Virus record (IMG/VR): IMGVR_UViG_2563366805_000006
Span: 1-29,162 of that record
DNA length: 29,162 bases
Origin: a virus
Taxonomy: Duplodnaviria > Heunggongvirae > Uroviricota > Caudoviricetes
Direction: 5' to 3' (one strand)
Part shown: positions 1 through 15,122 of the stretch, piece by piece
Numbering within the stretch: position 1 is the first letter of the stretch
How the letters are laid out: every line of letters begins with the position of its first letter
Translations under genes and position numbers: made by a program
Notes under the pieces: model-generated
Told to the model about the DNA's origin: nothing
The model's input: the letters and a program-made list of their open reading frames with translations, nothing else
Databases searched by the model: none

Positions 1-237
1 ATGGAACTGTTCGTCATTTCTTCAAAACTCCCTTTGCGTAAACGCATTAAACTGGTCATCCCGCTTTTTAAAGGTGTTATGACCATCCTCTGTGGTTACA
101 ACTGGTCGCTTAAGTTCAGGCCTGTCGGGAAAGCGCAGGCCGACGGATTAAGCTTTGACGTCTATCAGGACGACGTTACATCGCAAGATGCGCTTATCGT
201 CCTGGTCGATAGCAAACGAACTATGCTGCCTGATTAA
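1..237 (+). CDS. 3' end of an unidentified flanking ORF (open to window start), stop abuts the int stop codon
   Basis: Open frame from window start to TAA at 235-237, immediately followed by the convergent int stop at 238-240. No recognisable motif. It is antisense to a possible continuation of the right-flank gene across a candidate att core, so it could be a real host gene end or a chance ORF. Confidence 0.25.
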   Translation: MELFVISSKLPLRKRIKLVIPLFKGVMTILCGYNWSLKFRPVGKAQADGLSFDVYQDDVTSQDALIVLVDSKRTMLPD

Positions 238-240
238 TTA

Positions 241-1221
241 TCAAACCGTTAAACCTCCCTTTAATGGGTTTAACGCTACTGCGTTTTGCAGGTAATCAGG
301 CGCAAGGTGCGCATAGGCCATCGTCTGCTGAATGCTCGCGTGCCCGAGAATCTGCTGCAGCGCAATAATATTGCCCCCGTTCATCATGAAATGGCTTGCG
401 AAGGTATGGCGCAGGATGTGTGTTGCCTGATTGGGTGGAATATCAGGTTTCACTCTGCGTAAAATCCCGCAAAACTTCTCATAGTCAACCTTGAACAATT
501 TAGCGCTGGCCTCCTCTTTAACTTTCTTCTCCAGTTCCTCGGAAATCGGCACAGTTCGCTTTTTGCCGTTTTTTGTTTTCAAAAAGGTAACCCTGCAGCT
601 TGTTATCTGCGCTGGTTTCAGCGTGGCAACTTCCGTCCATCTTCCGCCAGTGCTCAGGCACAAAAGCGCGACCAGCAAGTCATCACCAACCAAAACGCTT
701 AACAGCTTCTCAATTTCTGACTTATCCAGAAATGTCATTTCCGGGTTGGCCTCCGCCAGCGGCGGCAGTCCATGAATCGGATGTTGCCCGGAATACTCAT
801 CCAACTGGATTAGCTTGGTGAACATGCCCGATAAACGGTACATGTCACGATTTATCGTCGCTGCGCTGATGCCATCGCGTAGACGAACAGAGCGGTAATC
901 CATAAGACTTTTTTTATTCAATCTGCTGACCGGCATATCACCCAATCCGCTGATGGTTTTGCGCAAATGCCCTCGCTCTTTTTCTCCGTGTTCGTGATTC
1001 TGGCCGTGATACTTCCACCATGCCTCTAATAGTTCTGACAGGGTGCGGCGGTCTGTTCGCTGGCCTGCCCATTCTTTCTGGCTGGCGTTGGCGATTGTGT
1101 ACCGCTCAAATGCTACAGCCTCAGCTTTTCTTTCAAACTTCCTGCGGATGCGTTTTCCGTCGCGGCCGCGAGGTCTAATGTCCACTTCATAGCGACCATC
1201 ATCGAGCTTCTTAATTGGCAT
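241..1221 (-). CDS. int: Phage integrase, tyrosine recombinase (P2 Int family)
   Basis: 326 aa from MPIKKLDD, with a GGAGGG RBS 8 nt upstream; the longer track ORF start at 1251 has none. C-terminal catalytic signature HILRHTFASH ... GHASIQQTMAYAHL (HxxR and catalytic Tyr). First gene at the prophage end. Confidence 0.93.
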   Translation of the reverse strand: MPIKKLDDGRYEVDIRPRGRDGKRIRRKFERKAEAVAFERYTIANASQKEWAGQRTDRRTLSELLEAWWKYHGQNHEHGEKERGHLRKTISGLGDMPVSRLNKKSLMDYRSVRLRDGISAATINRDMYRLSGMFTKLIQLDEYSGQHPIHGLPPLAEANPEMTFLDKSEIEKLLSVLVGDDLLVALLCLSTGGRWTEVATLKPAQITSCRVTFLKTKNGKKRTVPISEELEKKVKEEASAKLFKVDYEKFCGILRRVKPDIPPNQATHILRHTFASHFMMNGGNIIALQQILGHASIQQTMAYAHLAPDYLQNAVALNPLKGGLTV

Positions 1222-1290
1222 AAGAAAGCCCTCCGGCGCTGTACTCACCATCTTGGTAACAAATGGTGAAAATGTAATGTTTGTAGAGTG

Positions 1291-1584
1291 TTAACCAGTC
1301 TGTTTCTCGGAGTGGTCTGATTCTGTTGATTCTTGCCCAATGTGTGCGAAAGCCGGTGCTATCTGACCAGCTTGCGGGGCTGTCTCATCGGTCATTATCC
1401 AGAGCGTATATTTTTTGAATAACGGCGTATTCACTATCTGCGTAACGATTTGGATCCCCGGTTCTCGATGTTCACCTTCATAGTTTTTTAGAGTGCTTAT
1501 TGCCAACCCTGTTAGCTCGCAAAACTTTGCTTGAGTAAGCCCTTCCGCCTTTCTAATTGCGCGGAGCTTCTGAGACATTTTCAT
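1291..1584 (-). CDS. C: Immunity repressor C (HTH, XRE-like)
   Basis: 97 aa. N-terminal HTH LTQAKFCELTGLAISTLKNYE and C-terminal GQIAPAFAHIGQ resemble P2 C repressor. Divergent from cox, as in P2. Confidence 0.85.
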   Translation of the reverse strand: MKMSQKLRAIRKAEGLTQAKFCELTGLAISTLKNYEGEHREPGIQIVTQIVNTPLFKKYTLWIMTDETAPQAGQIAPAFAHIGQESTESDHSEKQTG

Positions 1585-1737
1585 TTGACATGATTCCCAA
1601 TTGCAGACTATATTCCCTCAAAAGGTGTGCAGATGAGAACCTTTTAAGGCGCGTAAACCAGTCCCCAAAAGGACAGGGGCGACTTAGAAGGGACTGGATC
1701 TAACAAGGGTAACACGAAAGCAAAAAGGGGCTAACCA
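1585..1737. promoter_or_regulatory. C/cox lysis-lysogeny switch region (candidate Pe and Pc promoters and operators)
   Basis: Candidate rightward promoter TTGACA (1585-1590), 18-nt spacer, TATATT (1609-1614). An 8-bp inverted repeat CCAGTCCC ... GGGACTGG lies at about 1656-1698. Position corresponds to the P2 Pe/Pc switch. Confidence 0.45.
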
Positions 1738-2010
1738 ATGGAAGCCAATGATTATGTGATTCAGTACCCGCTTGACGCGGTGCATACGGTGAAGTTTGCC
1801 GAGTTGCTTGGTAAGCCAGAATCGGCAGTTACCAAGATGGTCAAAGAGAATAAATTGCCAGTTATCGAGCTTCGGGATCCAAGTAAGCCGAATGCTCGCG
1901 CCGGTGAAAAGTGGGTTTTCATCCCGGAATTTAATCGCGCAGTTCGTGAGGCGTTCTACAACCGACCGGTAGAACAGCGTGACGCGTGGCTGCTTTGGAT
2001 GGGGCTTTGA
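1738..2010 (+). CDS. cox: Cox (excisionase and repressor of Pc)
   Basis: 90 aa. Similar to P2 Cox (motifs KLPVIELRDPSKPNARAGEKWVFIP and C-terminal RDAWLLWMGL). First gene of the early operon. Confidence 0.85.
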   Translation: MEANDYVIQYPLDAVHTVKFAELLGKPESAVTKMVKENKLPVIELRDPSKPNARAGEKWVFIPEFNRAVREAFYNRPVEQRDAWLLWMGL

Positions 2011-2012
2011 TT

Positions 2013-2189
2013 ATGAATGAGCCTCGTTGCATTGCTCAGTTATTGCGTAACGAGAGTCCGAGGGCGATGGATTTCACTATTACCCACGGCAGAGGGCGCA
2101 AGGGCATCATCATCCGCACCAAAAAACAGAGCGTTATTAGCGCCGTTTTTGCTTTTCTGAAATCCCGGAGGTTCTGGAAATGCCTGTGA
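2013..2189 (+). CDS. Small hypothetical early protein (P2 orf78 position)
   Basis: 58 aa from the ATG 3 nt after the cox stop (the track ORF starts earlier at 1986). Basic composition, no motif recognised; start uncertain. Confidence 0.35.
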   Translation: MNEPRCIAQLLRNESPRAMDFTITHGRGRKGIIIRTKKQSVISAVFAFLKSRRFWKCL

Positions 2190-2680
2190 TGACACTTGGT
2201 ATCGTGGAGAAACAGCCTGCAGCTCTGCGCGGTCTGATTGGTAAATATCTGGCCGCGCCTCGCTGGCAGGATAGTTGCGATTTTTACAATCAGATGATGG
2301 AACGTGAGCGCCTGACCGTTTGTTTTCATGCTCAGTTAAAGCAGCGTCACGCGACGATGCGTTTTGAAGAAATGAACGATGTAGACCGTGAGCGATTAGT
2401 TTGCGCTATTGATGAGTTGCGTGCTGCATTTTGCAGACGTCGACAGGTTGGCGCGAGCGAGTATGCGTATATTAGTTTTTTGACGGTCAGCCAGCGCCGC
2501 ACTTTGTTTATGCATGCCGGATTAACTGAAAAAGAATTTAATCAGCCTTACTGGCGTATTAATGAAGATTCCTGTTATTGGCGTGATGCTTTATTTCGTG
2601 CCTTGCGGGAGCTTTTTAATTTATTTGAGTATGCACCAACAATATTAACCTCGGTAAAGCCTGAGCAATATCTGCATTAA
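2180..2680 (+). CDS. B: Replication protein B (helicase loader)
   Basis: 166 aa, same length as P2 gpB, with collinear similarity from memory. Start overlaps the upstream ORF. Confidence 0.85.
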   Translation: MPVMTLGIVEKQPAALRGLIGKYLAAPRWQDSCDFYNQMMERERLTVCFHAQLKQRHATMRFEEMNDVDRERLVCAIDELRAAFCRRRQVGASEYAYISFLTVSQRRTLFMHAGLTEKEFNQPYWRINEDSCYWRDALFRALRELFNLFEYAPTILTSVKPEQYLH

Positions 2681-2743
2681 ATAAACAACCGCAGTTTTTT
2701 ACGCACTTAATTGTGCGGGGCTTCTTTTTGTCTGGAGAAAGTC

Positions 2744-2968
2744 ATGCATACAGTAACAGGAAAGCAGCGCAGTAACTTCTCATTAATGCTGCAACAGGCG
2801 CGAGCCGAAGCGCAGGCAGATGCGGCGACGCGCTTTTCCTCTCATCTGGATAGTTTAATCCGTCATATAGCTGGCGCTGAGTTATCGCGTGTGGAGATAG
2901 TCGAGTTACTCAGTCAGGAATCCATCAAGTTTCATAATATCGGCCTTTCTCGTGGGGAGTCTATTTAA
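2744..2968 (+). CDS. Hypothetical early protein (P2 orf80 position)
   Basis: 74 aa from MHTVTG, with GGAGAAA RBS upstream. Its stop overlaps the next start (TAATG). Lies in a low-GC block. Confidence 0.5.
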
Positions 2969-3264
2969 TGTCTCTGATGCAATCCGTATTACTTAATAAC
3001 TGGCTAAAGATTGCGGTTATGAAAAACGGTGAATTATCGCTTGCTGACATTAAGCGCGATAAAGAAACCGGAGCGATGACGGAATCAACAATCGCTATTT
3101 ATTCGAGTGAATTAAACCTCCTGACGGATGTGGTCAATTTGCTTGTGAAACGCGCCGTTTTTCATAAGCAAATCACCACCGTAGATGAATTATCAAAATT
3201 AACTATCGAGCTAACCGGTTACTGCGCCGGTGAGTTTAAAAAACTGAACAGAGAGAGGAGCTAA
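2968..3264 (+). CDS. Hypothetical early protein (P2 orf81 position)
   Basis: 98 aa, AT-rich codon usage, translationally coupled to the upstream ORF. Confidence 0.5.
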   Translation: MSLMQSVLLNNWLKIAVMKNGELSLADIKRDKETGAMTESTIAIYSSELNLLTDVVNLLVKRAVFHKQITTVDELSKLTIELTGYCAGEFKKLNRERS

Positions 3265-3268
3265 ATCA

Positions 3269-3493
3269 ATGCCGGATTATATGGATCACATTCAGGAGCG
3301 ACAGACGGAATCACTGACTCGCCAGATTAACGCCGCTCGGGTGAAACCGTGCGGCGCTGCTGCATTGGTTTGCGAAGAATGTGACGCACCAATCCCTGCC
3401 GACCGCCGTGCGGCATATCCGTCGGCGACACGCTGTGTCTACTGTCAGTCAGCGCTTGAGTCAAAAGCTAAACACTTTCGGGGGCAGGCATGA
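3269..3493 (+). CDS. TraR/DksA-family C4 zinc-finger protein (P2 orf82 position)
   Basis: 74 aa with CxxC-(17)-CxxC: CEECDAPIPADRRAAYPSATRCVYCQ. GAGAGGAG RBS upstream. Confidence 0.65.
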   Translation: MPDYMDHIQERQTESLTRQINAARVKPCGAAALVCEECDAPIPADRRAAYPSATRCVYCQSALESKAKHFRGQA

Positions 3494-3765
3494 GCATTCG
3501 TATCGAGATTGGTGAGCGCTATGTCGTCACAAGTGACCGTTTTCAGTTCATTTTGCAGGAGAAAAAGACCGCCGAAACAGGGAAGAATGCCGGTAAAGAG
3601 TGGCTGGATGTTGTCGGCTATTACCCCAAATTAAACCAGCTCGTTTCCGGTCTGATTCATCACGATATTTTGAGCGGCAGCGCTGTCTCTTTTGAAGCGT
3701 TGAGCACTCAGGTTGAACTGCTAGGTAAGCAGTGTTTACGGGCTTTTGACACAAATGGCCGTTGA
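3490..3765 (+). CDS. Hypothetical early protein (P2 orf83 position)
   Basis: 91 aa, ATGA overlap with the upstream ORF; its end overlaps the A start. Confidence 0.5.
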   Translation: MSIRIEIGERYVVTSDRFQFILQEKKTAETGKNAGKEWLDVVGYYPKLNQLVSGLIHHDILSGSAVSFEALSTQVELLGKQCLRAFDTNGR

Positions 3766-6046
3766 TATTCGGGGGCGTTCTGCCCCTACACCGCCACCAC
3801 CATTTGCAAAAGGCACCGGCAAAGAGTTTGCCGGTGTTTACTCATGGAACGCGCCGCGTGAGGCTATTGGGCGCGAGAGACCCCTTACACGTGACGAGCT
3901 GCGTCAGGTGCAAGGCGTTTTATCCAAAATTGACCGCCTGCCTTACTTTTTAAGTTCTCTGTTTGCCTCGCGTTATGAATATATCAGGCGTAACAAAAGC
4001 CCTGTGCATGGGCTGTATTTCCTCAAGTCGACATTTCTGCGCCGGTTGTGGCCGCGCATTGAGCGGGTTAATCAGCGTAACGAAATGAATAGGGAGGCGT
4101 CGCTGCTGTTTCTTGCTGAAAGTGAGAATTACGCGCGCCTGCCGGGGATGAACGATAAAGAGCTGAAAAAATTTGCGTCTCGTATCGCCTCGCAGCTTTT
4201 CATCATGTACGAGGAGTTAAGCGACGCATGGGCTGAGGCGCACGGTGGCAAAGAGTCGCTTTTTACTGATGAGGCTCAGGCTCACCTGTACGGTCATGTT
4301 GCTGGCGCAGCTCGGGCTTTTAATGTTGCCCCGCTTTTCTGGAAGAAATACCGCAAAGGCCAGATGACAATCCGACAGGCATTTTCCGCCGTAGCTCGCC
4401 TGATTAACGATGAATGGTGGACTAACCAGCTCAAGGCGCAGCGCATGCGCTGGCATGAAGCGCTGCTGATTGCTGCAGGCGAGGTGAATAAAGACCGCTC
4501 GCCGTATGCCAGTAAAAATGCCGTCCGTGATGTACATGCACGCCGTCTGGCAAATCTTGAATACCTGAAATCCTGCGAGCTGGAAAACAAAGTTACCGGC
4601 GAACGTATCGACCTTATCAGCAAAGTGATGGGAAGTATTTCCAATCCTGAAATTCGCCGCATGGAGCTGATGAACACCATCGCGGGGATTGAGCGTTATG
4701 CCGCTGCTGAGGGTGATGTCGGTATGTTTATCACGCTGACTGCACCGTCGAAGTATCACCCGACACGTCAGGTCGGAAAGGGTAAAGATAAGACTGTACA
4801 GCTCAATCATGGCTGGAATGGTGAGGCTTACACCCCGAAGGATGCACAGCGTTACCTTTGCCGTATCTGGAGCCTGATGCGTACCGCTTTCAAAGATAAT
4901 GATTTGCAGGTCTACGGTATGCGTGTTGTCGAACCGCACCACGACGGGACGCCGCACTGGCACATGATGTTGTTTTGCAAGCGCCAGCAGCGCAAAGAAA
5001 TCACCGAAATTATGAGTCGTTATGCTCTCAAAGAGGATGGCGACGAGCGCGGTGCAGCTCGCAACCGCTTTCAGGCTAAACACCTGAACAAAGGCGGTGC
5101 GGCCGGGTACATCGCGAAATACATCGCCAAAAATATCGACGGTTACGCACTTGATGGCGAGCTCGATAAAGATACCGGCAAGCCGCTCAAAGATACCGCC
5201 GCCGCTGTTACTGCATGGGCGTCAACGTGGCGAATACCTCAGTTTAAGCCGATTGGCCTGCCGACGATGGGGGCTTACCGTGAGCTGCGCAAGCTGCCTA
5301 GCGGGGTAAGTATTGCTGATGAGTTTGACGAGCGTGTCGAAGCAACACGCGCCGCGGCTGATGGCGGTGATTTCGACCTGTATATCACCGCTCAGGGCGG
5401 CGCAAATGTCCCGCGCGACGGCCAGACCGTCAGGGTCGCCCGTAGCGTCAGTGATGAGGTTAATGACTACGAGGAAGATATCGAGAGGGTGGTCGGTATT
5501 TACGCGCCTCACCTCGGCGCGCGTCACGTTCACATTACCCGGTCATCAGAATGGCGCATCGTTCCAAAGGTTTTGGCCGTTGAGCCTTTGACCTTAAAAA
5601 GCGGCATCGCCGCGCCTCGGAGTCCTGTCAATAACTGTGGAAAGCTCACCGGCGGTGACGTTCCGGTTATGACCACTACACCGTCTGAGCATGCCGCAGC
5701 GGTGTTAAATCTTGTTGATGACGGGGCTATCGCATGGGATGACCCCGAAGTCGTGACGGCGCTCAAGGGCGCACTAAAACACGACGCGCGGCAGCAAAAT
5801 CGCCAGCAAAGAAGCGGAGAGCCATTAAAACCGCATGACGTTGCCCCATCAGGCAGGCTGACTAAATCCGAACGCGCGCAAATACCGCGTATCCGCTTTG
5901 ACCTTGCGCAGCATGGCATCACCCCGAAGCGCTGGGAGCTTGAGGCGCTGGCGCGTGGTGCGACCGTGACATACGACGGGAAGAGATTCACATATCCGGT
6001 CGCTGATGAGTGGCCGGGGTTTACTGGTATATCTGAATGGGGGTAA
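3755..6046 (+). CDS. A: Replication initiation protein A (HUH rolling-circle endonuclease)
   Basis: 763 aa from MAVDIRG (P2 gpA starts MAV...). HUH motif PHWHMMLF and paired active-site tyrosines YIAKYIAK visible. Near-collinear with P2 gpA. Confidence 0.95.
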   Translation: MAVDIRGRSAPTPPPPFAKGTGKEFAGVYSWNAPREAIGRERPLTRDELRQVQGVLSKIDRLPYFLSSLFASRYEYIRRNKSPVHGLYFLKSTFLRRLWPRIERVNQRNEMNREASLLFLAESENYARLPGMNDKELKKFASRIASQLFIMYEELSDAWAEAHGGKESLFTDEAQAHLYGHVAGAARAFNVAPLFWKKYRKGQMTIRQAFSAVARLINDEWWTNQLKAQRMRWHEALLIAAGEVNKDRSPYASKNAVRDVHARRLANLEYLKSCELENKVTGERIDLISKVMGSISNPEIRRMELMNTIAGIERYAAAEGDVGMFITLTAPSKYHPTRQVGKGKDKTVQLNHGWNGEAYTPKDAQRYLCRIWSLMRTAFKDNDLQVYGMRVVEPHHDGTPHWHMMLFCKRQQRKEITEIMSRYALKEDGDERGAARNRFQAKHLNKGGAAGYIAKYIAKNIDGYALDGELDKDTGKPLKDTAAAVTAWASTWRIPQFKPIGLPTMGAYRELRKLPSGVSIADEFDERVEATRAAADGGDFDLYITAQGGANVPRDGQTVRVARSVSDEVNDYEEDIERVVGIYAPHLGARHVHITRSSEWRIVPKVLAVEPLTLKSGIAAPRSPVNNCGKLTGGDVPVMTTTPSEHAAAVLNLVDDGAIAWDDPEVVTALKGALKHDARQQNRQQRSGEPLKPHDVAPSGRLTKSERAQIPRIRFDLAQHGITPKRWELEALARGATVTYDGKRFTYPVADEWPGFTGISEWG

Positions 6047-6048
6047 TT

Positions 6049-6237
6049 GTGAGAAAAATCTGTGTGATTGTTGGGTGGATTGCTGGGCTGTGGCTTTTCT
6101 TTCTGCTTCTTGGTTGGGCAGGTGAACAAGACCGCAAAGACTGTGAGGAGCGGATAGCAACAGAGCTGAAAACCACGGCTGTTTTTATAAACAATAAGTG
6201 CATGGTGAAGGGGTATGGTCGCTTTGACGGGAGGTGA
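6049..6237 (+). CDS. Small single-pass membrane protein (hypothetical), in the P2 accessory hotspot position
   Basis: About 62 aa from a GTG start (or ATG at 6037 overlapping the A stop). N-terminal hydrophobic helix ICVIVGWIAGLWLFFLLLGWAG followed by a charged tail EQDRKDCEER. No homolog recognised. Confidence 0.4.
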   Translation: MRKICVIVGWIAGLWLFFLLLGWAGEQDRKDCEERIATELKTTAVFINNKCMVKGYGRFDGR

Positions 6238-6345
6238 CCTATCTGACCCGAGCAAACGCCGCCGGTACTGAAACTTGCTTTCAGTGCTGGCGGGGTTGAA
6301 CAACGAGCCCCGCGAGGCGTTAGCCTGCCCCGTAGAGACCGCCCA

Positions 6346-6534: not shown

Positions 6535-6553
6535 GGCGTGGCGGGGAAAGCAT
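6535..6553. other. cos: cos site (19-nt cohesive-end sequence, 186-type)
   Basis: GGCGTGGCGGGGAAAGCAT matches the 186 cohesive end from memory (P2: GGCGAGGCGGGGAAAGCAC). Lies between A and Q, as in P2-family genomes. Confidence 0.6.
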
Positions 6554-6693: not shown

Positions 6694-6720
6694 TATGAAA
6701 AAGCCGCCATGCTGGCGGCT
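6694..6720 (-). terminator. Rho-independent terminator of the leftward P/Q packaging operon
   Basis: On the minus strand, hairpin AGCCGCCA-GCA-TGGCGGCT followed by TTTTTC, 10 nt downstream of the Q stop. Confidence 0.55.
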
Positions 6721-6729
6721 TGAGGGGGA

Positions 6730-7752
6730 TTATTCCGGGTTGTCGAGGGTGTACTCTTTGAACCTGATGACCTCCATGCCGAGCCAGTCGTTTACTTCCC
6801 TGAATCTGTCCTGTAGAGGCGACAGCTCGTTACGCACAAATACCTTTGCCACCTTCTCAACGTCACCAAGTGAGCCGATATTCTCGGGCTTACCACCCAT
6901 AAGCTGGAACGGCACGCGGTGCGCGTCCATCAGGTCGGCGGCGCTGGCTTTCTTAATGTTGAAAAAGTCATCCTTTGTGGCGACCTCGCTCAGGGGCACG
7001 ATTTTGATGCCGTCCGGTTTTCCGCCGGGAGCGTAGAAAAACAGGTTCTTAAAGTTGCCGAGCCCTTTCGAGTTTCGCATCGCCTCGCGCAGCGATTCGA
7101 CGTCGGTCGCGCTCTGCGCCGGGTCGGTCACATACATGATGTAACCCGCATGCGCGCCGTTCTGGTAATACTTGCGGCGGAACAGCGTCGCGGATTCATT
7201 CAGCCAGGCAGAATTAAGCGCGCTGAGATATTCGGGCAGGCCGTAAATCTCCTGATTAATATCGGGCTCCAGCAGGTGAAACACGGTATCAGGCGCGAAC
7301 TCATGCGGCAGCGTGAAGTTTTCCACAAACCAGAATATAGAATCGTCGACCCCGCGCCGGGTGTATTTGGCCGGTGAGGCCAGCAGCTTGATTAACTGGC
7401 CAGTGACGCTGTGGCGCTGCTCAAGAAAGGCGTTGCCGAATACCAGATAGTCGAGCGCAAAGCGGCTGAAATCCTGACGGGACAGCAACGGGTGCGGAAT
7501 GTAGGTGCTCGCGAGCACGTTGCGCTTAACGTAAATCGGTGAACTGTGATGTACAGCAGAGCGCAGGCTCTTTGCCAGCCCGGAGAAGCTGACCGGCGGC
7601 TCGTACCACTTGCCGTTACTGATGCACTCGACGTAATCCAGAATGTCGCGCTTATCGAGTACCGGCACCGGCTCGCCGAAGGTGAACGCCTCCATTTTTT
7701 GTGGGGCGCTGGCGGTCGTGGTGACTGTTTTGCGTGGCTTGCGCTTGCTCAT
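6730..7752 (-). CDS. Q: Portal protein Q
   Basis: 340 aa, collinear with P2 gpQ. Adjacent to cos and leftward, as in P2. Confidence 0.95.
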   Translation of the reverse strand: MSKRKPRKTVTTTASAPQKMEAFTFGEPVPVLDKRDILDYVECISNGKWYEPPVSFSGLAKSLRSAVHHSSPIYVKRNVLASTYIPHPLLSRQDFSRFALDYLVFGNAFLEQRHSVTGQLIKLLASPAKYTRRGVDDSIFWFVENFTLPHEFAPDTVFHLLEPDINQEIYGLPEYLSALNSAWLNESATLFRRKYYQNGAHAGYIMYVTDPAQSATDVESLREAMRNSKGLGNFKNLFFYAPGGKPDGIKIVPLSEVATKDDFFNIKKASAADLMDAHRVPFQLMGGKPENIGSLGDVEKVAKVFVRNELSPLQDRFREVNDWLGMEVIRFKEYTLDNPE

Positions 7753-8495
7753 GCTGCCACCTCACCCGCTGCAACAGCGAAAGACCAGTCGCAGCCAAAC
7801 AGTAGACGATAATCATCGTCGCTGTATTCACGTTTAATTTCCTCAGGCGCAAAGAGATTGCACCCGCGCTGACATGCTGCATCCAGAGTGACCGACTGAC
7901 GCCAGACACCATCAGTGCAAAATACGCTGTCGCCGGTATTGATTCGCGGTGACGGTCGGCGCTTGCGAGTTGTGCCGTTCCATACCCTGAATGCTGCGTA
8001 GCTGTCTGATGGTGTGGTGAACATCGTCAGGCTGTGGCGTTTATGGCAGGCGATAGCCGCTGCGACTTTTGCCGCTCTTAGCGGGTTATTGAACCATCCG
8101 AACTCATCAAGGTAGACGTTACCAGCCAGCGCGGCGCAATGGGATTCCTCGCCGACAAAGCTGATAACCGCCCCGCCGTCGAGCTGCAGGCTGTGGCCGT
8201 TACTCGTCAGGCGGACGCCGACGCGCGCCGAAAGGTTGTTCATGTACATCAGCGCCACGCGCGCATGCTCAACGGTGTGAGCAAACCAGACCTGATTATC
8301 GCCCGTTGTCAGCGCATCGAGCAGCGCCTCGCGACTAAAGAGCTGCGTTGCGCCAATCTGGCGCGATTTGGTGATGATGCGGTCGATATTGAGTTTCCCG
8401 ACACGCAACCATGTTGCCTGATAGTCAAAGCTGTCATTGTGCAGAATATCGGCCATTGCCTGAATCTGGCTTTGTGAGAAAACGTTATTTTTCAT
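7749..8495 (-). CDS. Terminase large-subunit ATPase-core paralogue lacking the N-terminal region and the nuclease domain (extra gene between Q and P)
   Basis: 248 aa. Aligns to residues about 124-372 of the adjacent gpP. Deviant Walker A KSRQIGAT, Walker B YLDE (P: YVDE) and coupling motif TMFTTPS (P: TYFSTPS) are retained. Start overlaps the P stop (TAATG) and stop overlaps the Q start (ATGA). Confidence 0.8.
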   Translation of the reverse strand: MKNNVFSQSQIQAMADILHNDSFDYQATWLRVGKLNIDRIITKSRQIGATQLFSREALLDALTTGDNQVWFAHTVEHARVALMYMNNLSARVGVRLTSNGHSLQLDGGAVISFVGEESHCAALAGNVYLDEFGWFNNPLRAAKVAAAIACHKRHSLTMFTTPSDSYAAFRVWNGTTRKRRPSPRINTGDSVFCTDGVWRQSVTLDAACQRGCNLFAPEEIKREYSDDDYRLLFGCDWSFAVAAGEVAA

Positions 8496-10264
8496 TAATT
8501 AAACTCCAGAATGGATTTAGGCTGCATGCCGCTACCGGCGGAAAGTGGTTCGTTTAACAGGGCGTGCATGGTCGCCCATGCGATATCGGCGTGACTGGCT
8601 TCCTCGGTGCGGCTGGCCTCGTAGGTAGCGCTGCGCCCGCTACTGGTCATGGTTTTGCGGATGGACATAAACGACTGCGTGACGTCGGTCGCCCCGGCGT
8701 CGTACTCCAGACAGCCACGGCGAATGGTGTCTTTTGCCTTGAGCACCATCGCGGTTTTCATCTCAGGCGTGTAACGGATGCCGCGTGCCGCCGGGTAGAA
8801 TGAGCGCACCAACTGGAACACGCCGAGACCGAGGCCGGTTGCGTCAATGCCGATGTATTCGACGTTGTATTTCTCGGTCAGTTTGCGGATGCCCTCGGCC
8901 TGCGCGGCAAAGTCCATGCCTTTCCACTGGTGGCGCTCCAGCATGCGGAACTTGCCACCCGAGACCACCGGCGGCGCGAGCACGACGCACCCGGCGCTGT
9001 CGCCGGTGTGTGACGGGTCGTAGCCAATCCAGACAGGACGCGAGCCGAACGGATGGTCGGCGAACGGGGCGAAGTCCTCCCATTCTTCCATCACGTCGAC
9101 CATGCAGCGCTGCAGCTCCTCGAACGGGAATACCGACGCTTTATCGTCGACAAACTCGCACATAAACAGGTTATTAAAGTCCTCATCACTGTTTTCGCGT
9201 TTGAGCTGGTCGAGGTCGAACAGGGTGCAGCCACCGGCAAGGGCATCCTCAATGGTGACAATCTGCCGCCACTGGCCATCGTCGCAGAGCTGGCCACCGG
9301 CGAGCGCGCTGTGACTGATGTCGATTTCGATGCGGTCGGCAATCCGGCTCCGCCCCTTGTTGAACAGCTCGCCAGACCAGAAGGGGTAAGCGCCGTGCGC
9401 CAGCGTGGAAGGTGTCGAAAAGTAGGTTGAGCGCAGGTGCTTCTGCGAGGCCATGCCCGACGCGACTTTGCGCAGCTTCTGAAAATTCGGGATCCAGAAT
9501 ATTTCATCGACATACAGGTCGCCGTTATGGCTCTGCGCGGTGTTGGAATTGGTACCGAGAAAAATCAGCTTTGCGCCGTTGTTGCCGATGACAATCGGGT
9601 CGCCGGTCAGGTCGACGTCGACCAGCCGCGCAAACTGGATGATGTACTCGCGGAACACGTAAGCCTGAGTTTTACTGGCCGACAGAAATATCTGGTTGTG
9701 GCCGGTCTTGAGTGCGCGCAGCAGCGCCTCGCGGGAGAAATAGAACGTCGCGCCAATCTGGCGGGATTTGAGAATGTCGCGAATACGGTGCGCCAGCCCT
9801 GCGCGGTACCACTGCAACTGGTACTCGAAAGACTGGTCGAAAAATAGTTCCTCCAGTTTCCCGATAGCCTCGTCGCTGAAAAAGTTCTTTTTCGGCTTCT
9901 TACGCTCACCCTTGTTACGGTTGGCGACATTGGGGTTAAGGTCGACCTCGTTGCCGGTTTGGCTGTAGCGGTTAACGCGCGCCAGTCGCTCAATCTGTCG
10001 CCCGAGCAGGTCAATCTCTTTGAAGTCGCCGCCTGACTTTTGCGGCTTGGCGATGAGCTGAATCAGCCTGGCCTCAAGGCTGCTTTCGACGCGGGAAATC
10101 GGTGCGATGCCGTCCCAGCCGTCGCGCTGCTTCCAGCTCTGCACGGTCGGGCGCTTAACCTGCAGCATTTCGGCAATCTGTGGCACGGAAAAACCCTGCC
10201 AGTAAAGCAGCGATGCCTGCCGTCGCGGGTCATGCAACAAGGTTGTATCGGTGGAAATGGTCAT
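8495..10264 (-). CDS. P: Terminase large subunit P (ATPase plus nuclease)
   Basis: 589 aa (P2 gpP 590). ATPase motifs KSRQIGAT / LYVDE / TYFSTPS, then a C-terminal RNaseH-like nuclease region (VWIGYDPSHTGDSAG ... GIDATGLG ... HADIAWATMHAL). Confidence 0.95.
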   Translation of the reverse strand: MTISTDTTLLHDPRRQASLLYWQGFSVPQIAEMLQVKRPTVQSWKQRDGWDGIAPISRVESSLEARLIQLIAKPQKSGGDFKEIDLLGRQIERLARVNRYSQTGNEVDLNPNVANRNKGERKKPKKNFFSDEAIGKLEELFFDQSFEYQLQWYRAGLAHRIRDILKSRQIGATFYFSREALLRALKTGHNQIFLSASKTQAYVFREYIIQFARLVDVDLTGDPIVIGNNGAKLIFLGTNSNTAQSHNGDLYVDEIFWIPNFQKLRKVASGMASQKHLRSTYFSTPSTLAHGAYPFWSGELFNKGRSRIADRIEIDISHSALAGGQLCDDGQWRQIVTIEDALAGGCTLFDLDQLKRENSDEDFNNLFMCEFVDDKASVFPFEELQRCMVDVMEEWEDFAPFADHPFGSRPVWIGYDPSHTGDSAGCVVLAPPVVSGGKFRMLERHQWKGMDFAAQAEGIRKLTEKYNVEYIGIDATGLGLGVFQLVRSFYPAARGIRYTPEMKTAMVLKAKDTIRRGCLEYDAGATDVTQSFMSIRKTMTSSGRSATYEASRTEEASHADIAWATMHALLNEPLSAGSGMQPKSILEFN

Positions 10265-10429
10265 TGATGCCTCGCCGTAGTGGATTCAGGGCAAGGCTAC
10301 TTAATGGCCGTCAGTGATTCGCTAAGGTGCTGTTGTGTGGGCGGTTGTCCAGTCGTCATTGGTGGTCTGGTGTGTCCTGAGTCTGGAAACTGGCGGTGAC
10401 CAGTAACTCCAACCTCAGGACTCCTGACA
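10265..10429. promoter_or_regulatory. Divergent late promoter region (P leftward, O rightward; expected Ogr-dependent)
   Basis: Intergenic region between divergent late operons, as in P2. Inverted repeats TCCTGAG (10375-10381) and CTCAGGA (10413-10419). No perfect TGT-N12-ACA Ogr box found. Confidence 0.4.
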
Positions 10430-11359: not shown

Positions 11360-12427
11360 ATGCGTCAGGAAACCCGTTTTAAGTTCAATGCCTATCTGAC
11401 CCAGCTCGCCAAACTGAACGGCATCAGCGTTGATGACGTCAGCAAAAAATTCACCGTCGAGCCGTCCGTCACGCAAACGCTGATGAACACCGTGCAAGCG
11501 TCATCCGCATTTTTGCAGATGATTAACATTCTGCCGGTCGCAGAAATGAAGGGCGAGAAAATCGGCGTCGGTGTGACCGGCACCATCGCCAGCACGACCG
11601 ACACCTCGGGCGACAAAGAGCGCCAGACCGCCGATTTCACTGCGCTTGAGTCCAACAAGTACGAGTGCAATCAGATTAACTTTGACTTCCACCTGACCTA
11701 TAAACGCCTCGACCTGTGGGCGCGTTTTCAGGACTTCCAGCGCCGCATCCGCGACGCCATTGTCCAGCGTCAGGCGCTGGATTTCATTATGGCCGGGTTC
11801 AACGGTACCACCCGCGCTGATACCTCAGACCGCAGCAAAAACCCGATGCTGCAGGATGTGGCCGTCGGCTGGCTGCAGAAGTACCGCAACGAAGCCCCGG
11901 CGCGCGTGATGAGCAAAATCACCGCTGAGGACGGTACCGTTATTTCTGACGTGATTCGCGTTGGCAAAAACGGCGACTATGAGAACCTCGACGCGCTGGT
12001 GATGGACGGTACCAACACCCTGATTGACGAGATTTATCAGGATGACCCGAAACTCGTTGCCATCGTTGGCCGTAAGCTGCTGGCCGACAAATATTTCCCG
12101 CTGGTCAACAAACAGCAGGAAAATACCGAGTCGCTGGCGGCGGATATCATCATCAGCCAGAAGCGCATCGGCAACCTGCCAGCCGTTCGCGTGCCGTACT
12201 TCCCTGCGAATGCGGTATTCGTGACCACGCTGGAAAACCTCTCTATCTACTTCATGGATGAGAGTCACCGCCGCAGCATTGATGAGAACCCGAAAAAAGA
12301 CCGCGTGGAAAACTACGAGTCGATGAACATCGACTATGTGGTCGAGGCGTATGCCGCCGGGTGCCTGCTGGAAAATATCACCCTGGGCGATTTCACCGCG
12401 CCAGCAGCACCGGAAAGCGGAGCCTAA
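11360..12427 (+). CDS. N: Major capsid protein N
   Basis: 355 aa from MRQETRFKFNAYL (identical start to P2 gpN). AGGAAATA RBS. Track ORF start at 11327 rejected. Confidence 0.95.
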   Translation: MRQETRFKFNAYLTQLAKLNGISVDDVSKKFTVEPSVTQTLMNTVQASSAFLQMINILPVAEMKGEKIGVGVTGTIASTTDTSGDKERQTADFTALESNKYECNQINFDFHLTYKRLDLWARFQDFQRRIRDAIVQRQALDFIMAGFNGTTRADTSDRSKNPMLQDVAVGWLQKYRNEAPARVMSKITAEDGTVISDVIRVGKNGDYENLDALVMDGTNTLIDEIYQDDPKLVAIVGRKLLADKYFPLVNKQQENTESLAADIIISQKRIGNLPAVRVPYFPANAVFVTTLENLSIYFMDESHRRSIDENPKKDRVENYESMNIDYVVEAYAAGCLLENITLGDFTAPAAPESGA

Positions 12428-12430
12428 ACC

Positions 12431-13180
12431 ATGACGAGCCCCGCACAGCGTCACATGATGCGGGTCTCGGCCTCTCAAGCCGCGCAGCGGGAGCAAGCCC
12501 CGCTGCGCCATGCAACCGCCTATGAGCAGATGCTGGTAAAGCTGGCCGAAGACCGCCGCACGTTAAAAAACATCCGTTCAAATGAGCGTAAAGCCGAGAA
12601 AAAGCGCGAGCTGCTGCCGTTCTATGCGCCGTGGGTCGCCGGTGTGCTGGCTGATGGCCGTGGTGCGCAGGATGACATTGTCATGACCGTCATGCTGTGG
12701 CGTCTCGATGCCGGTGATATAGCTGGCGCGCTGGAAATTGCACCCTACGCACTGAAATACGGCCTCACCTCTGACCATCGCCGCACGACACCTTACATGC
12801 TGGTTGAGGAGGTGGCACTTGCCGCACAGCGCCTGCGCGATGCCGGTGAGCCTGTCGACCTCGCATTACTGCTGACCACCCTCAGCCTGACCGACGGCGC
12901 TGACGTTCCCGATATGGTGCGCGCCCGTCTGCATAAGGTGACTGGCCTGACCCTGCGTGATGCCGGTCAGAACGCCGACGCGCTGGCGCAGTTTCAGCGC
13001 GCGATGCAGCTCGACCGCAATGCCGGTGTGCGCAAAGAGATTGAGCGACTGGAGCGCGCATTGAAGCCAAAGCCAGAGGCAGCACCCCGTAAAACGACTA
13101 AACCGCGCACGCGCAAACCTGCCACCAAACCGGCGGCAAAGCGCGGGCGTCCACCAAAGGCGGTAAAAACCGCCGGTTAA
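12431..13180 (+). CDS. M: Terminase small subunit M
   Basis: 249 aa (P2 gpM 247). Lys/Arg/Pro-rich C-terminal tail. Position after N. Confidence 0.9.
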   Translation: MTSPAQRHMMRVSASQAAQREQAPLRHATAYEQMLVKLAEDRRTLKNIRSNERKAEKKRELLPFYAPWVAGVLADGRGAQDDIVMTVMLWRLDAGDIAGALEIAPYALKYGLTSDHRRTTPYMLVEEVALAAQRLRDAGEPVDLALLLTTLSLTDGADVPDMVRARLHKVTGLTLRDAGQNADALAQFQRAMQLDRNAGVRKEIERLERALKPKPEAAPRKTTKPRTRKPATKPAAKRGRPPKAVKTAG

Positions 13181-13273
13181 CTGAACGCTCCCCGAGCCGG
13201 GCGGCACGCCGGTCAAAGCGGGTTTTGACCCTGACGGCGACCGGCGTCCACCGCCCAACCTAATGAGGTTGTC

Positions 13274-13783
13274 ATGACGACAGTAATACTGAATCAGCCC
13301 GACGAACCGCAGGACGTACCGGGCGTGGTGATTCCCGCACCGGAGACGGGCGACGCAGTGATTAAAAACACGTTCTTTTTCCCTGACGTGGATCCGAAGC
13401 GGGTGCGCGAGTTGATGCGCCTTGAGCAGACGGTTTCCGATGCGCGCCTGCGCAACGCCATCAAGACCGGCATGGCGGAAACCAATGCGGAGCTTTACGA
13501 CTACCGGCTGCGCCAGATTGCCGCAGGGTTTAAGCAACTGGCCGACGTGCCTGACGCCGAGGAAATCGACGGCGAGAATGTGCGCATTTTCCACTACCTC
13601 AGCGCCGTGACGGCGATGGCGACCGCCACCCTGTATGAGCGTTATCGCGGGGTTGAGGCCACCGGCAAGGGTGACAAAAAAGCCGACAGCGTCGAAACCA
13701 CCATTGATGACCTGTGGCGGGATATGCGCTGGTCGGTCTCGCGCCTGCAGGATAAGCCGCGCTGCATCGTGGGTCAGCTCTGA
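13274..13783 (+). CDS. L: Head completion/stabilisation protein L
   Basis: 169 aa (P2 gpL 169), collinear. Confidence 0.9.
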   Translation: MTTVILNQPDEPQDVPGVVIPAPETGDAVIKNTFFFPDVDPKRVRELMRLEQTVSDARLRNAIKTGMAETNAELYDYRLRQIAAGFKQLADVPDAEEIDGENVRIFHYLSAVTAMATATLYERYRGVEATGKGDKKADSVETTIDDLWRDMRWSVSRLQDKPRCIVGQL

Positions 13784-13986
13784 TGAAAGTCTACGCGATG
13801 CAGGGCGACACCCTCGACGCGCTTTGCGCCCGGTATTACGGGCGCACTGAGAACGTGGTCGAGACGGTGCTGCAGGCTAATCCCGGTCTGTCTGAGCTGG
13901 GCGTCATTCTGCCGCATGGCACGGCGATTGACCTGCCCGACGTTGAAACCTCACCTACGGCGGAGACCCTGAACCTATGGGACTGA
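13783..13986 (+). CDS. X: Tail protein X (LysM-like)
   Basis: 67 aa. MKVYAMQGDTLDALCARYYGRTE ... closely resembles P2 gpX. ATGA overlap with L. Confidence 0.85.
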   Translation: MKVYAMQGDTLDALCARYYGRTENVVETVLQANPGLSELGVILPHGTAIDLPDVETSPTAETLNLWD

Positions 13987-14198
13987 GTATGGAAAAAATC
14001 ACCACGTTTATCGCCTACTGGCTAGCCGTGGGTCTGGCGTATTTCGGGGCAATGTCACCCGAAAAACTGGCGCTGTATGTGGGTAGTCTGTGCGCCATTT
14101 TTACGGCGGCGGTGAATTTCTGGTACCGGCGCAAAACCTTTCGTTACCTGACCGAAATGGGAATCGACAAAGGGGTGACCCGTGAGCTCAATCGTTAA
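13977..14198 (+). CDS. Holin (two TM helices; possibly pinholin type)
   Basis: 73 aa with two hydrophobic segments (FIAYWLAVGLAYFGA; LALYVGSLCAIFTAAVNFW) and a basic C-terminus. Not similar to P2 Y. Alternative start at 13989. Confidence 0.6.
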   Translation: MGLSMEKITTFIAYWLAVGLAYFGAMSPEKLALYVGSLCAIFTAAVNFWYRRKTFRYLTEMGIDKGVTRELNR

Positions 14199-14694
14199 AC
14201 GTTGCAGTGTGGCCGCAGTGCTGGCGCTGGCGGCACTGATGCCTGATTTTCGTCTGCTGAATACCTCGCCTGATGGTCTGGCGCTGATTGCCGACCTTGA
14301 AGGGTGTCGCCTGACACCATACCAGTGCAGCGCGGGCGTGTGGACGTCAGGCATCGGCCACACTGCCGGGGTGGTACCGAAACGCGATATCACCGAGCGC
14401 CAAGCGGCGGCAAATCTGGTCGCCGACGTGCTGAACACCGAGCGCCGTCTCGCGGTTTGCGTGCCGGTCACTATGCCGCAGCCGGTTTACGACGCGCTGG
14501 TCAGTTTCTCTTTTAACGTAGGCACCGGCGCGGCCTGCCGCTCTACGCTGGTTTCTTACATCAAGCGTCATCAGTGGTGGCAGGCATGCGACCAGCTTAC
14601 CCGCTGGGTGTATGTCAATGGCACTAAAAACAAAGGGCTGGAAAACCGCCGCGCGCGGGAACTGGCGTATTGCATGAAAGGAGTAACCCAATGA
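14182..14694 (+). CDS. SAR endolysin (T4-lysozyme fold with N-terminal signal-anchor-release domain)
   Basis: 170 aa from a GTG start with AAGGGG RBS. N-terminal hydrophobic Cys-containing segment CSVAAVLALAALM, then catalytic E-8aa-C-5aa-T (LEGCRLTPYQCSAGVWTSGIGHT). C-terminal CDQLTRWVY resembles phage 21 R / P1 Lyz. Not the P2 K type. Confidence 0.85.
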   Translation: MSSIVKRCSVAAVLALAALMPDFRLLNTSPDGLALIADLEGCRLTPYQCSAGVWTSGIGHTAGVVPKRDITERQAAANLVADVLNTERRLAVCVPVTMPQPVYDALVSFSFNVGTGAACRSTLVSYIKRHQWWQACDQLTRWVYVNGTKNKGLENRRARELAYCMKGVTQ

Positions 14695-15122
14695 AAAAAT
14701 ATTTACGTTCCCTGATGTTCGATGCCCTGCTGGCACTGGTGCTGCTTTGGGGGCTGGCATCGCCGCAAAGCGCCGCCGTCAACTTTGTTGCCGCGTGGGC
14801 GCTGTTTGGCAGTTTCATCTGCATTACGGCGAGCGTCGCCGGTGTGGTCGCTTATGAGCACTGGCTGCGAAATACGGGCAAAAATATTCCCGTCAATCCA
14901 GACCTGATGAAAGTATTTCGCGCCGTCTTTTGCCGTAAGCCCTCTCAGGGGCGTCGGGCATGGTCTCTCATTATTTTCTCTGTTACCACGGGATGTTTAC
15001 TTGGGGCTGGCTGGATCCTAACGGCGCTGCTCTACCTGCTTTGTGTTCTGACCTTTAAGGCCGTTCGCGAGACTTACCGCCAGCGCATTGAGGGGGCTGG
15101 CCTGTGTCCAGATTCATTGTGA
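14691..15122 (+). CDS. lysA: LysA-like membrane protein (lysis timing accessory)
   Basis: 143 aa from ATG with AAGGAG RBS, ATGA overlap with the endolysin stop. About four hydrophobic helices. Confidence 0.55.
   Translation: MKKYLRSLMFDALLALVLLWGLASPQSAAVNFVAAWALFGSFICITASVAGVVAYEHWLRNTGKNIPVNPDLMKVFRAVFCRKPSQGRRAWSLIIFSVTTGCLLGAGWILTALLYLLCVLTFKAVRETYRQRIEGAGLCPDSL

What the first reader, a model, noticed from the sequence alone, without database searches (positions are those of the whole stretch)
7749..8495. Extra translationally coupled gene between portal Q and terminase P: a nuclease-less paralogue of the terminase ATPase core
In P2 and 186, as I recall, the portal and large-terminase genes are directly adjacent. 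Here a 248-aa ORF sits between them, sharing one nucleotide with the P stop (TAATG) and overlapping the Q start (ATGA), so it should be co-translated with the packaging proteins. Its protein aligns with residues about 124-372 of the neighbouring gpP. It keeps the deviant Walker A (KSRQIGAT in both), Walker B (YLDE vs YVDE) and the coupling motif (TMFTTPS vs TYFSTPS). It lacks the N-terminal ~120 residues and the whole C-terminal nuclease domain. In the Walker A region the DNA is only about 70% identical to P by eye, with many synonymous changes, so this is an old or foreign paralogue under protein-level selection, not a fresh tandem duplication. A stand-alone terminase ATPase core inside the packaging operon could act as a packaging modulator, a dominant-negative decoy against superinfecting or satellite-redirected packaging, or a translocase accessory; none of these is established.
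Basis: partly seen in the sequence, partly recalled or inferred. Interest (0 to 1): 0.85.

Follow-up and report, generated by a model that had tools for sequence, protein, structure and literature searches.

The report
Phage 186 gene W: ATPase-only terminase paralogue
The ORF is real and is a nuclease-less copy of the terminase ATPase domain, but it is the already annotated gene W of phage 186, an optional, fast-evolving packaging-operon gene whose function is still untested.

Summary
A 248-aa ORF (7749-8495, minus strand) lies between terminase P and portal Q. It shares one base with the P stop and four with the Q start. It aligns with gpP residues 125-371 at 38% identity.

The novelty claim fails. 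The window's late region is about 95% identical to phage 186. GenBank U32222 annotates this ORF as "W protein; similar to Orf12", and PSP3 calls it gp2.

What I found:
- The gene is under purifying selection (dN/dS 0.13, against 0.04-0.05 for P and Q). It is intact in all 11 close loci examined.
- It is optional. A plaque-forming Yersinia phage whose P gene is 97% identical lacks it, and only 8 of 5426 complete E. coli genomes carry it.
- The same P-short-Q layout occurs in Yersinia, Pectobacterium, Limnobaculum and Microbulbifer; a similar short protein occurs in Iodobacter, context not examined. Some short copies group with their own neighbouring P, so the origin is recurrent or the copies are homogenised.
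- Full-length terminases keep all six catalytic residues (50/50). Short paralogues do so in only 22/37.

The most likely role is a non-translocating, nucleotide-binding accessory of the packaging machinery. No experiment supports any role. Interest is moderate and the feature is already known.

The parts
7749..8495 (-). Gene W orthologue: 248-aa stand-alone terminase ATPase domain
   Evidence: ORF. Pfam Terminase_6N only. 94% aa identity to 186 W and 90% to PSP3 gp2. AF2 model pLDDT 89.4; best fold match is the T4 gp17 ATPase domain.
8495..10264 (-). Large terminase gpP (186 Orf12 homologue), 589 aa: HTH + ATPase + nuclease
   Evidence: Pfam Terminase_5, Terminase_6N and Terminase_6C. 99% aa identity to 186 Orf12.
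6730..7752 (-). Portal protein (186 Orf2 / P2 Q homologue), 340 aa
   Evidence: Pfam Phage_portal. 98% aa identity to the 186 portal.
8493..8497 (-). TAATG junction: the P stop and the W start share base 8495
   Evidence: Sequence read. The same arrangement occurs in all 11 close loci.
7749..7752 (-). ATGA junction: the W stop overlaps the portal start
   Evidence: Sequence read. Conserved in the close loci.
8504..8507 (-). GGAG Shine-Dalgarno-like element 8 nt upstream of the W start, inside the 3' end of P
   Evidence: Sequence read. Function is inferred.
8346..8369 (-). Codons for the deviant Walker A motif KSRQIGAT (W residues 43-50)
   Evidence: Alignments.
8103..8120 (-). Codons for Walker B and the catalytic Glu, NVYLDE (W residues 126-131)
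   Evidence: PSP3 has DD here and the Yersinia clade has GE.
8007..8018 (-). Codons for the C (coupling) motif TTPS (W residues 160-163)
   Evidence: This motif is degenerate across the short family.
10287..10324 (-). Late promoter p12 (B-activated) that drives the P-W-Q operon; position transferred from the 186 annotation
   Evidence: 186 feature at 3753-3790. The window is 98-99% identical here, with a constant offset of 6534.
6698..6721 (-). Terminator tW at the end of the P-W-Q operon; position transferred from the 186 annotation
   Evidence: 186 feature at 164-187. The hairpin GCCGCCATGCTGGCGGC is conserved.
6535..6553 (+). cos cohesive-end sequence, identical to 186 and PSP3 (context)
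   Evidence: Exact match, with 0 expected by chance.

Best explanation
The ORF is the orthologue of phage 186 gene W (PSP3 gp2). It is the middle gene of the late P-W-Q packaging operon and is translated by coupling to the terminase and portal genes. Its product is a complete, well-folded copy of the gpP ATPase domain. It lacks both the N-terminal HTH region and the C-terminal nuclease domain.

Shown here:
- It is a real, selected protein.
- It is optional for the phage.
- It evolves about 2.5 times faster than the P ATPase core at non-synonymous sites.
- Equivalent short paralogues sit in the same slot in distant P2-like prophages.
- Across these paralogues the fold and most of the nucleotide pocket are kept. 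The catalytic residues, the C (coupling) motif and a motif that is invariant in full-length terminases (SASxxQ, just after Walker A) are frequently lost.

Inferred: W does not work as a DNA-translocating or DNA-cutting terminase subunit. It more likely acts as a nucleotide-binding accessory that binds a packaging partner. The most plausible partner is gpP itself, through ATPase-ATPase contacts. The small terminase is a second candidate. In this way W would tune terminase assembly or activity rather than provide it. The window's own copy still has all six catalytic residues, so it may retain some ATPase activity.

My confidence that it is W and an ATPase-only paralogue is about 0.95. My confidence in the modulator mechanism is about 0.3.
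For: Identity:
- The P-W-Q region is 95% identical in nucleotides to 186 in one collinear piece. The ORF is annotated there as "W protein; similar to Orf12" and in PSP3 as gp2.

Fold:
- Pfam finds Terminase_6N only.
- The AF2 model has pLDDT 89.4 and pTM 0.89. The top matches are the T4 gp17 ATPase domain (E = 9e-9, TM 0.66-0.69), the P74-26 terminase ATPase domain and the D6E large terminase.

Selection:
- dN/dS is 0.133 for W, 0.051 for the P core, 0.037 for the P nuclease domain and 0.044 for Q.
- All 11 close loci have an intact 248-aa ORF with the same overlaps.
- Orthologues at 45-55% identity keep a length of 245-254 aa.

Optional:
- Many Eganvirus phages lack it. These were isolated as lytic phages (abstract).
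- MDG45, which lacks W, has a P gene 97.2% identical to the window's. That is closer than the P genes of W+ 186 (95.8%) or PSP3 (93.9%).
- W is in 8 of 5426 complete E. coli genomes. About 72 records carry a 186-type P and 1539 genomes carry some P2-like P.

Fast evolution:
- Between L004 and L008 the P core is 86% identical and W only 45%.

Same slot elsewhere:
- The P-short-portal layout is found in L004, L007, L008, L010, L011, L013, L072 and L075.

Relaxed catalysis:
- All six core residues are kept in 50/50 full-length proteins but in only 22/37 short representatives (Fisher p = 4e-7).
- The residues that 48/50 full-length terminases have at the two C-motif positions are kept in only 15/37 and 10/37 short representatives.
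- SASxxQ residues are kept in 6-10 of 37.
Against: - There is no experimental or interaction evidence of any kind. I could not predict complexes.
- The 186 record gives this ORF a letter name. From memory (Hocking & Egan 1982, not read here), 186 letter genes were defined by conditional-lethal mutants. That would make W essential in 186, which conflicts with "optional" unless amber mutations act by polarity on the coupled portal gene.
- The window's copy and most of its close relatives keep every catalytic residue, so an enzymatic role in this clade is not excluded.
- Six of the 15 "defective" representatives carry a correlated swap: Walker A Thr to Asp together with Walker B Asp to Gly, Ser, Ala or Pro. 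This may preserve Mg-ATP binding, so the loss of catalysis may be overstated.
Confidence: 0.5

Rival explanations
1. W is an active auxiliary ATPase of the 186-type terminase holoenzyme. It would be a genuine third terminase subunit whose ATP hydrolysis is needed, for example, for cos-complex assembly, cos cutting or the switch to translocation. On this view it is essential in phages that carry it.
For: - The window's W keeps the Q motif, K43, R45, G48, T50, D130, E131 and TTPS.
- The 186 depositors gave it the genetically defined gene name W, whereas the portal and terminase are only Orf2 and Orf12.
- The EtG announcement treats the two proteins as the two terminase subunits.
Against: - Closely related plaque-forming phages lack it.
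- PSP3 and L020 have the catalytic Glu changed to Asp, and the Yersinia clade has the Walker B Asp changed to Gly.
- 15 of 37 family representatives have lost a core residue, against none of 50 terminases.
Confidence: 0.2
2. W is a weapon or shield in conflicts. It could be a dominant-negative ATPase domain that poisons the terminase of co-resident P2-like phages. Alternatively it could be a decoy for host sensors that recognise terminase.
For: - W shows fast protein evolution and presence/absence polymorphism on a short time scale.
- Several distant members carry natural E-to-Q or D-to-N Walker B changes, the classic way to make an ATP-bound but hydrolysis-dead subunit.
- E. coli genomes hold up to three places matching the P gene.
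Against: - W is expressed only from the late operon, together with its own P.
- W shows no greater similarity to foreign P proteins than to its own.
- A terminase ATPase domain alone activates EcAvs2 and Upx rather than blocking them. The analogous T4 protein vs.8 is toxic with EcAvs2.
- W has no match in PADLOC.
Confidence: 0.12
3. W is a functionless leftover of a duplicated terminase gene. It would be kept open only because its reading frame carries the translational coupling from P to the portal.
For: - It is optional and rare.
- Catalytic motifs are relaxed.
- It evolves faster than its neighbours.
Against: - dN/dS of 0.13 shows constraint on the amino-acid sequence, not merely on frame.
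- Length and about 20 fold-core positions are conserved down to 25-35% identity.
- The model is confident and compact.
- Phages without W couple P directly to Q, so no spacer ORF is needed.
Confidence: 0.08

Closest known systems
Phage 186 gene W product (AAC34147.1, U32222 1215..1961) and PSP3 gp2 (AAN08364.1)
   Same: These are orthologues. They are 94% and 90% identical in amino acids and are also 248 aa. They have the same P-W-Q order, the same one-base and four-base overlaps and the same late operon.
   Different: There is nothing structural. 47 of 248 positions vary among ten close orthologues, including E131D in PSP3. The window's early region is not 186-like.
ATPase domain of the P2-family large terminase gpP (186 Orf12)
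   Same: It is homologous over the whole ATPase domain (38% identity). It has the same deviant Walker A, Walker B, Q motif and lid motif DGxWRQxVT.
   Different: - It has no Terminase_5 HTH region and no RNase H-like nuclease domain.
- The SASxxQ motif and G98, both invariant in terminases, are lost.
- Non-synonymous change is faster.
T4 vs.8, a stand-alone protein similar to the T4 terminase ATPase domain (preprint 10.64898/2026.04.30.721860)
   Same: It is a separately encoded, uncharacterised protein that resembles the phage's own terminase ATPase domain and has Walker A and B motifs.
   Different: It belongs to a different phage family and lies at a different genomic position (from memory, not next to gene 17). 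I did not compare its sequence with W. It is an analogy, not a membership.
Nuclease-less packaging ATPases (phi29 gp16) and the isolated T4 gp17 N-terminal domain
   Same: They share the ASCE ATPase fold without a nuclease domain. Foldseek matches were 5hd9 at E = 3e-3 and 2o0h at E = 9e-9.
   Different: phi29 gp16 is the sole motor ATPase of its phage. W coexists with a complete terminase and tends to lose its catalytic and coupling motifs.

Membership tests
Large terminase ATPase domain (Pfam PF03237 Terminase_6N; ASCE P-loop fold) | Profile match above the curated threshold | tested here: met
   80.4 bits against a cut-off of 22, covering residues 40-237. The top PHROG match is phrog_3746, terminase large subunit, E = 7e-122.
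Large terminase ATPase domain (Pfam PF03237 Terminase_6N; ASCE P-loop fold) | Three-dimensional fold of solved terminase ATPase domains | tested here: met
   The AF2 model has pLDDT 89.4. Matches include T4 gp17 (TM 0.66-0.69) and P74-26, D6E and Sf6 terminases.
Large terminase ATPase domain (Pfam PF03237 Terminase_6N; ASCE P-loop fold) | Walker A, Walker B with catalytic Glu, and C motif | tested here: met
   All are present in the window's copy. Across the short family only 22/37 keep all six core residues.
Complete large terminase subunit (TerL / gpP) | C-terminal RNase H-like nuclease domain (Terminase_6C) | tested here: not met
   There is no Terminase_6C hit. The protein ends at the position equivalent to gpP residue 371-386.
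Complete large terminase subunit (TerL / gpP) | gpP-type N-terminal HTH region (Terminase_5) | tested here: not met
   It is absent. W starts at the position equivalent to gpP residue 124.
Phage 186 W / PSP3 gp2 orthologous group | High identity over the full length, and the same length | tested here: met
   94% identity to 186 W and 90% to PSP3 gp2; all are 248 aa.
Phage 186 W / PSP3 gp2 orthologous group | Position between the terminase and portal genes with overlapping stop and start codons | tested here: met
Phage 186 W / PSP3 gp2 orthologous group | Essential head gene defined by conditional-lethal mutants (classical 186 genetics) | not testable with these tools
   Only the gene name in U32222 is available. 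The primary papers are not held.
Anti-phage defence or anti-defence protein families | Match to a known defence-system model | tested here: not met
   There is no PADLOC hit at E <= 0.01.
T4 vs.8-like stand-alone terminase-ATPase-like proteins | Sequence or profile relationship to vs.8 | not tested
   It is known to me only from the description.

The most novel reading that the evidence does not exclude
Short ATPase-only terminase paralogues would be a recurrently evolved class of packaging regulators. Different P2-like lineages have independently produced, or kept homogenising, a copy of the gpP ATPase domain in the same slot with the same domain boundaries. The copy then sheds catalytic and coupling motifs and evolves fast. 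Such a protein could join or titrate the terminase ring, either to tune the phage's own motor or to sabotage a rival's.
Probability: 0.15. Interest if true: 0.7.

Novelty: already known. Interest (0 to 1): 0.38.

Why it matters
The gene has been in the 186 sequence record (U32222) for decades. Automatic annotation labels it as a second "terminase large subunit". I found no function for it in anything I could read.

If it proves to be a regulatory or poisoning subunit of a viral packaging motor, it would be a natural example of a hetero-oligomeric terminase. It would also be a handle on how the motor ring assembles. 186 genetics makes it an easy system to test.

It also matters for annotation. 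Phages with this gene do not have two large terminases.

Finally, host sensors such as Avs2 and Upx recognise the terminase ATPase domain. A second ATPase domain may therefore change how visible a phage is to them.

Tried and rejected
- **Primary papers.** The papers on 186 gene W (Portelli et al. 1998; Hocking & Egan 1982) and a P2 prophage review are not held. Full-text searches found no paper that discusses the gene's function.
- **First tree.** A neighbour-joining tree of database representatives put 34 of 37 short proteins in one clade. Bootstrap support for that exact split was only 7-8%. When the cognate P cores were added, monophyly of all short copies had 0% support. I therefore dropped the single-origin reading.
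- **Structure and family searches.** A profile search of PDB sequences found nothing. NCBIfam has no model for W. PADLOC has no hit.
- **Broad locus scan.** An alignment of the whole short family was too diverse to seed a locus scan, so I used the closer alignment A1 instead.
- **Anti-Avs decoy idea.** I downgraded it because ATPase domains alone activate EcAvs2 and Upx.
- **Possible remnant.** A 36-residue W fragment in Salmonella houtenae lies in a fully decayed prophage, so it says nothing specific about W.
- **Charge.** The isoelectric point does not differ between short paralogues and terminase cores.
- **Deletion scar.** I looked for one at the W+/W- junction and found none. The difference is a clean cassette replacement.

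Full report
**Observation.** The ORF at 7749..8495 on the minus strand encodes 248 aa.
- The terminase stop TAA and the ORF's ATG share base 8495.
- The ORF's TGA overlaps the portal ATG as ATGA at 7749-7752.
- Each start has a Shine-Dalgarno-like element 7-8 nt upstream.
- BLASTP against the adjacent 589-aa terminase gives 38% identity over terminase residues 125-371, E = 3e-44.
- Pfam finds only the terminase ATPase domain (Terminase_6N) in the short protein. The neighbour has the gpP-type HTH, the ATPase and the RNase H-like nuclease domains.
- The two genes are 51% identical in DNA overall and 68% around Walker A, and synonymous sites are near saturation.

**What it is.**
- Window 6700-10300 aligns in one piece, at 95% identity, with the left end of phage 186. 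It aligns at 93% with PSP3.
- In GenBank U32222 the same ORF (1215..1961) is annotated "W protein; similar to Orf12", and Orf12 is the terminase. In PSP3 it is "gp2; similar to 186 W; similar to orf3".
- The proteins are 94% and 90% identical to the window's, all are 248 aa, and all have the same overlaps.
- The cos sequence, the terminator after the portal gene and the B-activated divergent late promoters are conserved at a constant offset of 6534. The gene therefore sits in the late P-W-Q operon.
P2-type phages do lack the gene, since their records show a single match to W, under the terminase gene.

**Is it a working gene?**
- Among ten close orthologues dN/dS is 0.133 for W. It is 0.051 for the homologous part of P, 0.036-0.037 for the other P domains and 0.044 for the portal.
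- All eleven close loci have an intact 248-aa frame.
- Proteins of 245-254 aa at 45-55% identity occur in Hafnia, Pectobacterium and Yersinia, and closer ones (75-87% identity) in Enterobacter and Edwardsiella.
- An AlphaFold2 model is confident (pLDDT 89.4, pTM 0.89). Its best structural matches are the ATPase domains of T4 gp17 and of the P74-26, D6E and Sf6 terminases.

It is therefore a folded, selected protein and not a decaying duplicate.

**It is optional.**
- Many Eganvirus phages match the flanks but lack the roughly 750 bases. In Yersinia phage MDG45 the terminase stop is followed directly by the portal start. These phages were isolated as lytic phages (abstract).
- The MDG45 terminase gene is 97.2% identical to the window's. 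That is closer than 186 (95.8%) or PSP3 (93.9%), so presence and absence change faster than the flanking genes diverge.
- The two forms differ by a clean cassette. Homology stops at the terminase stop codon and resumes about 22-28 codons into the portal gene. From memory of P2 work, that stretch is removed from the mature portal.
- In complete E. coli genomes W is in 8 of 5426. About 72 records have a terminase at least 90% identical, and 1539 genomes have some P2-like terminase.
- Of about 595 IMG/VR matches, nine were W-type.

**The wider family.**
- A full HMMER scan of 1.84 billion representatives found 292 relatives.
- Of the 190 proteins collected from the two database searches, plus the window's own W and P, 51 are short proteins of 222-284 aa aligned end to end with W, and 50 are full-length terminases.
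- Every short one whose context I could read lies between a full terminase and a portal gene. Examples are Limnobaculum (L007), Pectobacterium (L008/9), Microbulbifer (L013), two metagenomic contigs (L010, L011), Yersinia phages of the genus Duonihilunusvirus (L004/5) and two IMG/VR contigs (L072, L075). One contig, L012, was too short to show context.
- The enterobacterial W clade is robust (bootstrap 100%). It is equidistant, at about 37%, from all terminases.
- The short copies in L010 and L013 group with their own neighbouring terminase (bootstrap 96% and 100%), in all three thirds of the protein. Monophyly of all short copies has no support.
- The slot has therefore been filled more than once, or the short copy is repeatedly overwritten from its neighbour. 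The first third of the L013 copy is 86% identical to its own terminase, with 20-codon windows reaching 90% nucleotide identity. That points to at least some gene conversion.

**Clues to mechanism.**
- W evolves much faster than its neighbours. Between the Yersinia and Pectobacterium loci the terminase ATPase core is 86% identical and W is 45%.
- In 50 of 50 full-length terminases the six core residues are all present: the deviant Walker A Lys, the P-loop Arg and Gly, the Walker A Thr/Ser, the Walker B Asp and the catalytic Glu. Only 22 of 37 short representatives keep them all (Fisher p = 4e-7).
- Some of the losses are classic hydrolysis-dead changes (Glu to Gln, Asp to Asn).
- Six representatives carry a correlated pair: Walker A Thr to Asp together with Walker B Asp to a small residue or Pro. 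This may preserve metal binding.
- The C (coupling) motif, a terminase-invariant SASxxQ motif after Walker A, and Gly98 are mostly lost. The Q motif, P-loop Arg and Gly, Gly125, Thr157, Asp195 and Arg199 are kept.
- This pattern fits a protein that keeps the fold and probably nucleotide binding but has given up the machinery that couples hydrolysis to DNA movement.
- I therefore favour a non-translocating accessory that binds a packaging partner. gpP itself is the obvious candidate. This step is inference only.
- The window's own copy retains all catalytic residues, so a residual enzymatic role in this clade is a live rival.

**A tension I could not resolve.**
- In the 186 record, genes defined genetically carry letters, and the rest are numbered Orfs. 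This ORF is "W", while the portal and terminase are only Orf2 and Orf12.
- From memory, 186 letter genes were defined by conditional-lethal mutants, which would make W essential.
- Polarity of amber mutations on the tightly coupled portal gene would reconcile this with the viable phages that lack W. I could not read the primary papers.

**Other roles considered.**
- A decoy for terminase-sensing immunity is unattractive. The ATPase domain alone activates EcAvs2 and Upx. T4 vs.8, a comparable stand-alone terminase-like ATPase, is toxic with EcAvs2. If anything, W may be a liability in such hosts.
- A dominant-negative weapon against rival P2-like phages fits the fast evolution and the patchy distribution, but it has no direct support.
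- There is no match to known defence families.

**Verdict.** The feature is the already annotated gene W of phage 186, so it is not new. What remains open is its function. The comparative results here give concrete, testable leads: the gene is optional, its origin is recurrent or its copies are homogenised, and its catalytic motifs are relaxed. Interest is moderate.

Noticed in passing
window 1-6250 versus 6535-27451: The window is a mosaic in prophage (circularly permuted) order. The late region matches 186 positions 1-20766 at 85-95% identity. The early and replication region does not: only a 164-base patch of the A gene matches, at 71%. No match to 186 28205-30341, which holds the SOS operon (tum, orf97), was reported. 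Salmonella phage FSL SP-004 covers 81% of the first 25 kb of the window, at 87% identity.
   Followed up: partly
window 13955-15139 and 18954-20693: Two segments inside the late region have no reported match (blastn, E <= 1e-10, alignments of at least 150 bases) to the corresponding 186 segments: 7418-8249, the lysis genes, and 12068-14031, the tail fibre genes. These are cassette replacements.
   Followed up: no
window 7672-7752 (first ~27 codons of the portal gene): The portal N-terminus differs between phages with W (MSKRKPRKTVTTTASAPQKME...) and without it (MGKQKSRKAAAQKASKQQQLTASAPPKTT...). Homology resumes at AFTFGEP. The W cassette therefore travels with the 5' end of the portal gene.
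   Followed up: partly
short paralogues P0028, P0031, P0045, P0046, P0087, P0119; also L072 and L075: There is a correlated substitution. The Walker A Thr becomes Asp (KSRQIGAD) wherever the Walker B Asp becomes Gly, Ser, Ala or Pro. This could be a compensatory relocation of the metal-binding carboxylate.
   Followed up: partly
P0117 (284 aa, metagenomic): This short paralogue runs on into the first nuclease motif (WIDYDP...) before it stops. It looks like a less completely trimmed terminase copy.
   Followed up: no
L076 and L077 (IMG/VR contigs): The full-length terminase gene is split into two frames in these P2-like contigs. This is either a frameshift or a sequencing error.
   Followed up: no
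L094 (Salmonella houtenae AGRM01000004.1, 99879-99986): A 36-residue fragment of the W C-terminus, 92% identical, lies next to IS elements and chromosomal genes. It is a remnant of a decayed W-carrying prophage.
   Followed up: partly
Aeromonas phage phiO18P (NC_009542.2, hit H85): This record showed two separate matches to W in tblastn. That may indicate another lineage with a short terminase paralogue.
   Followed up: no
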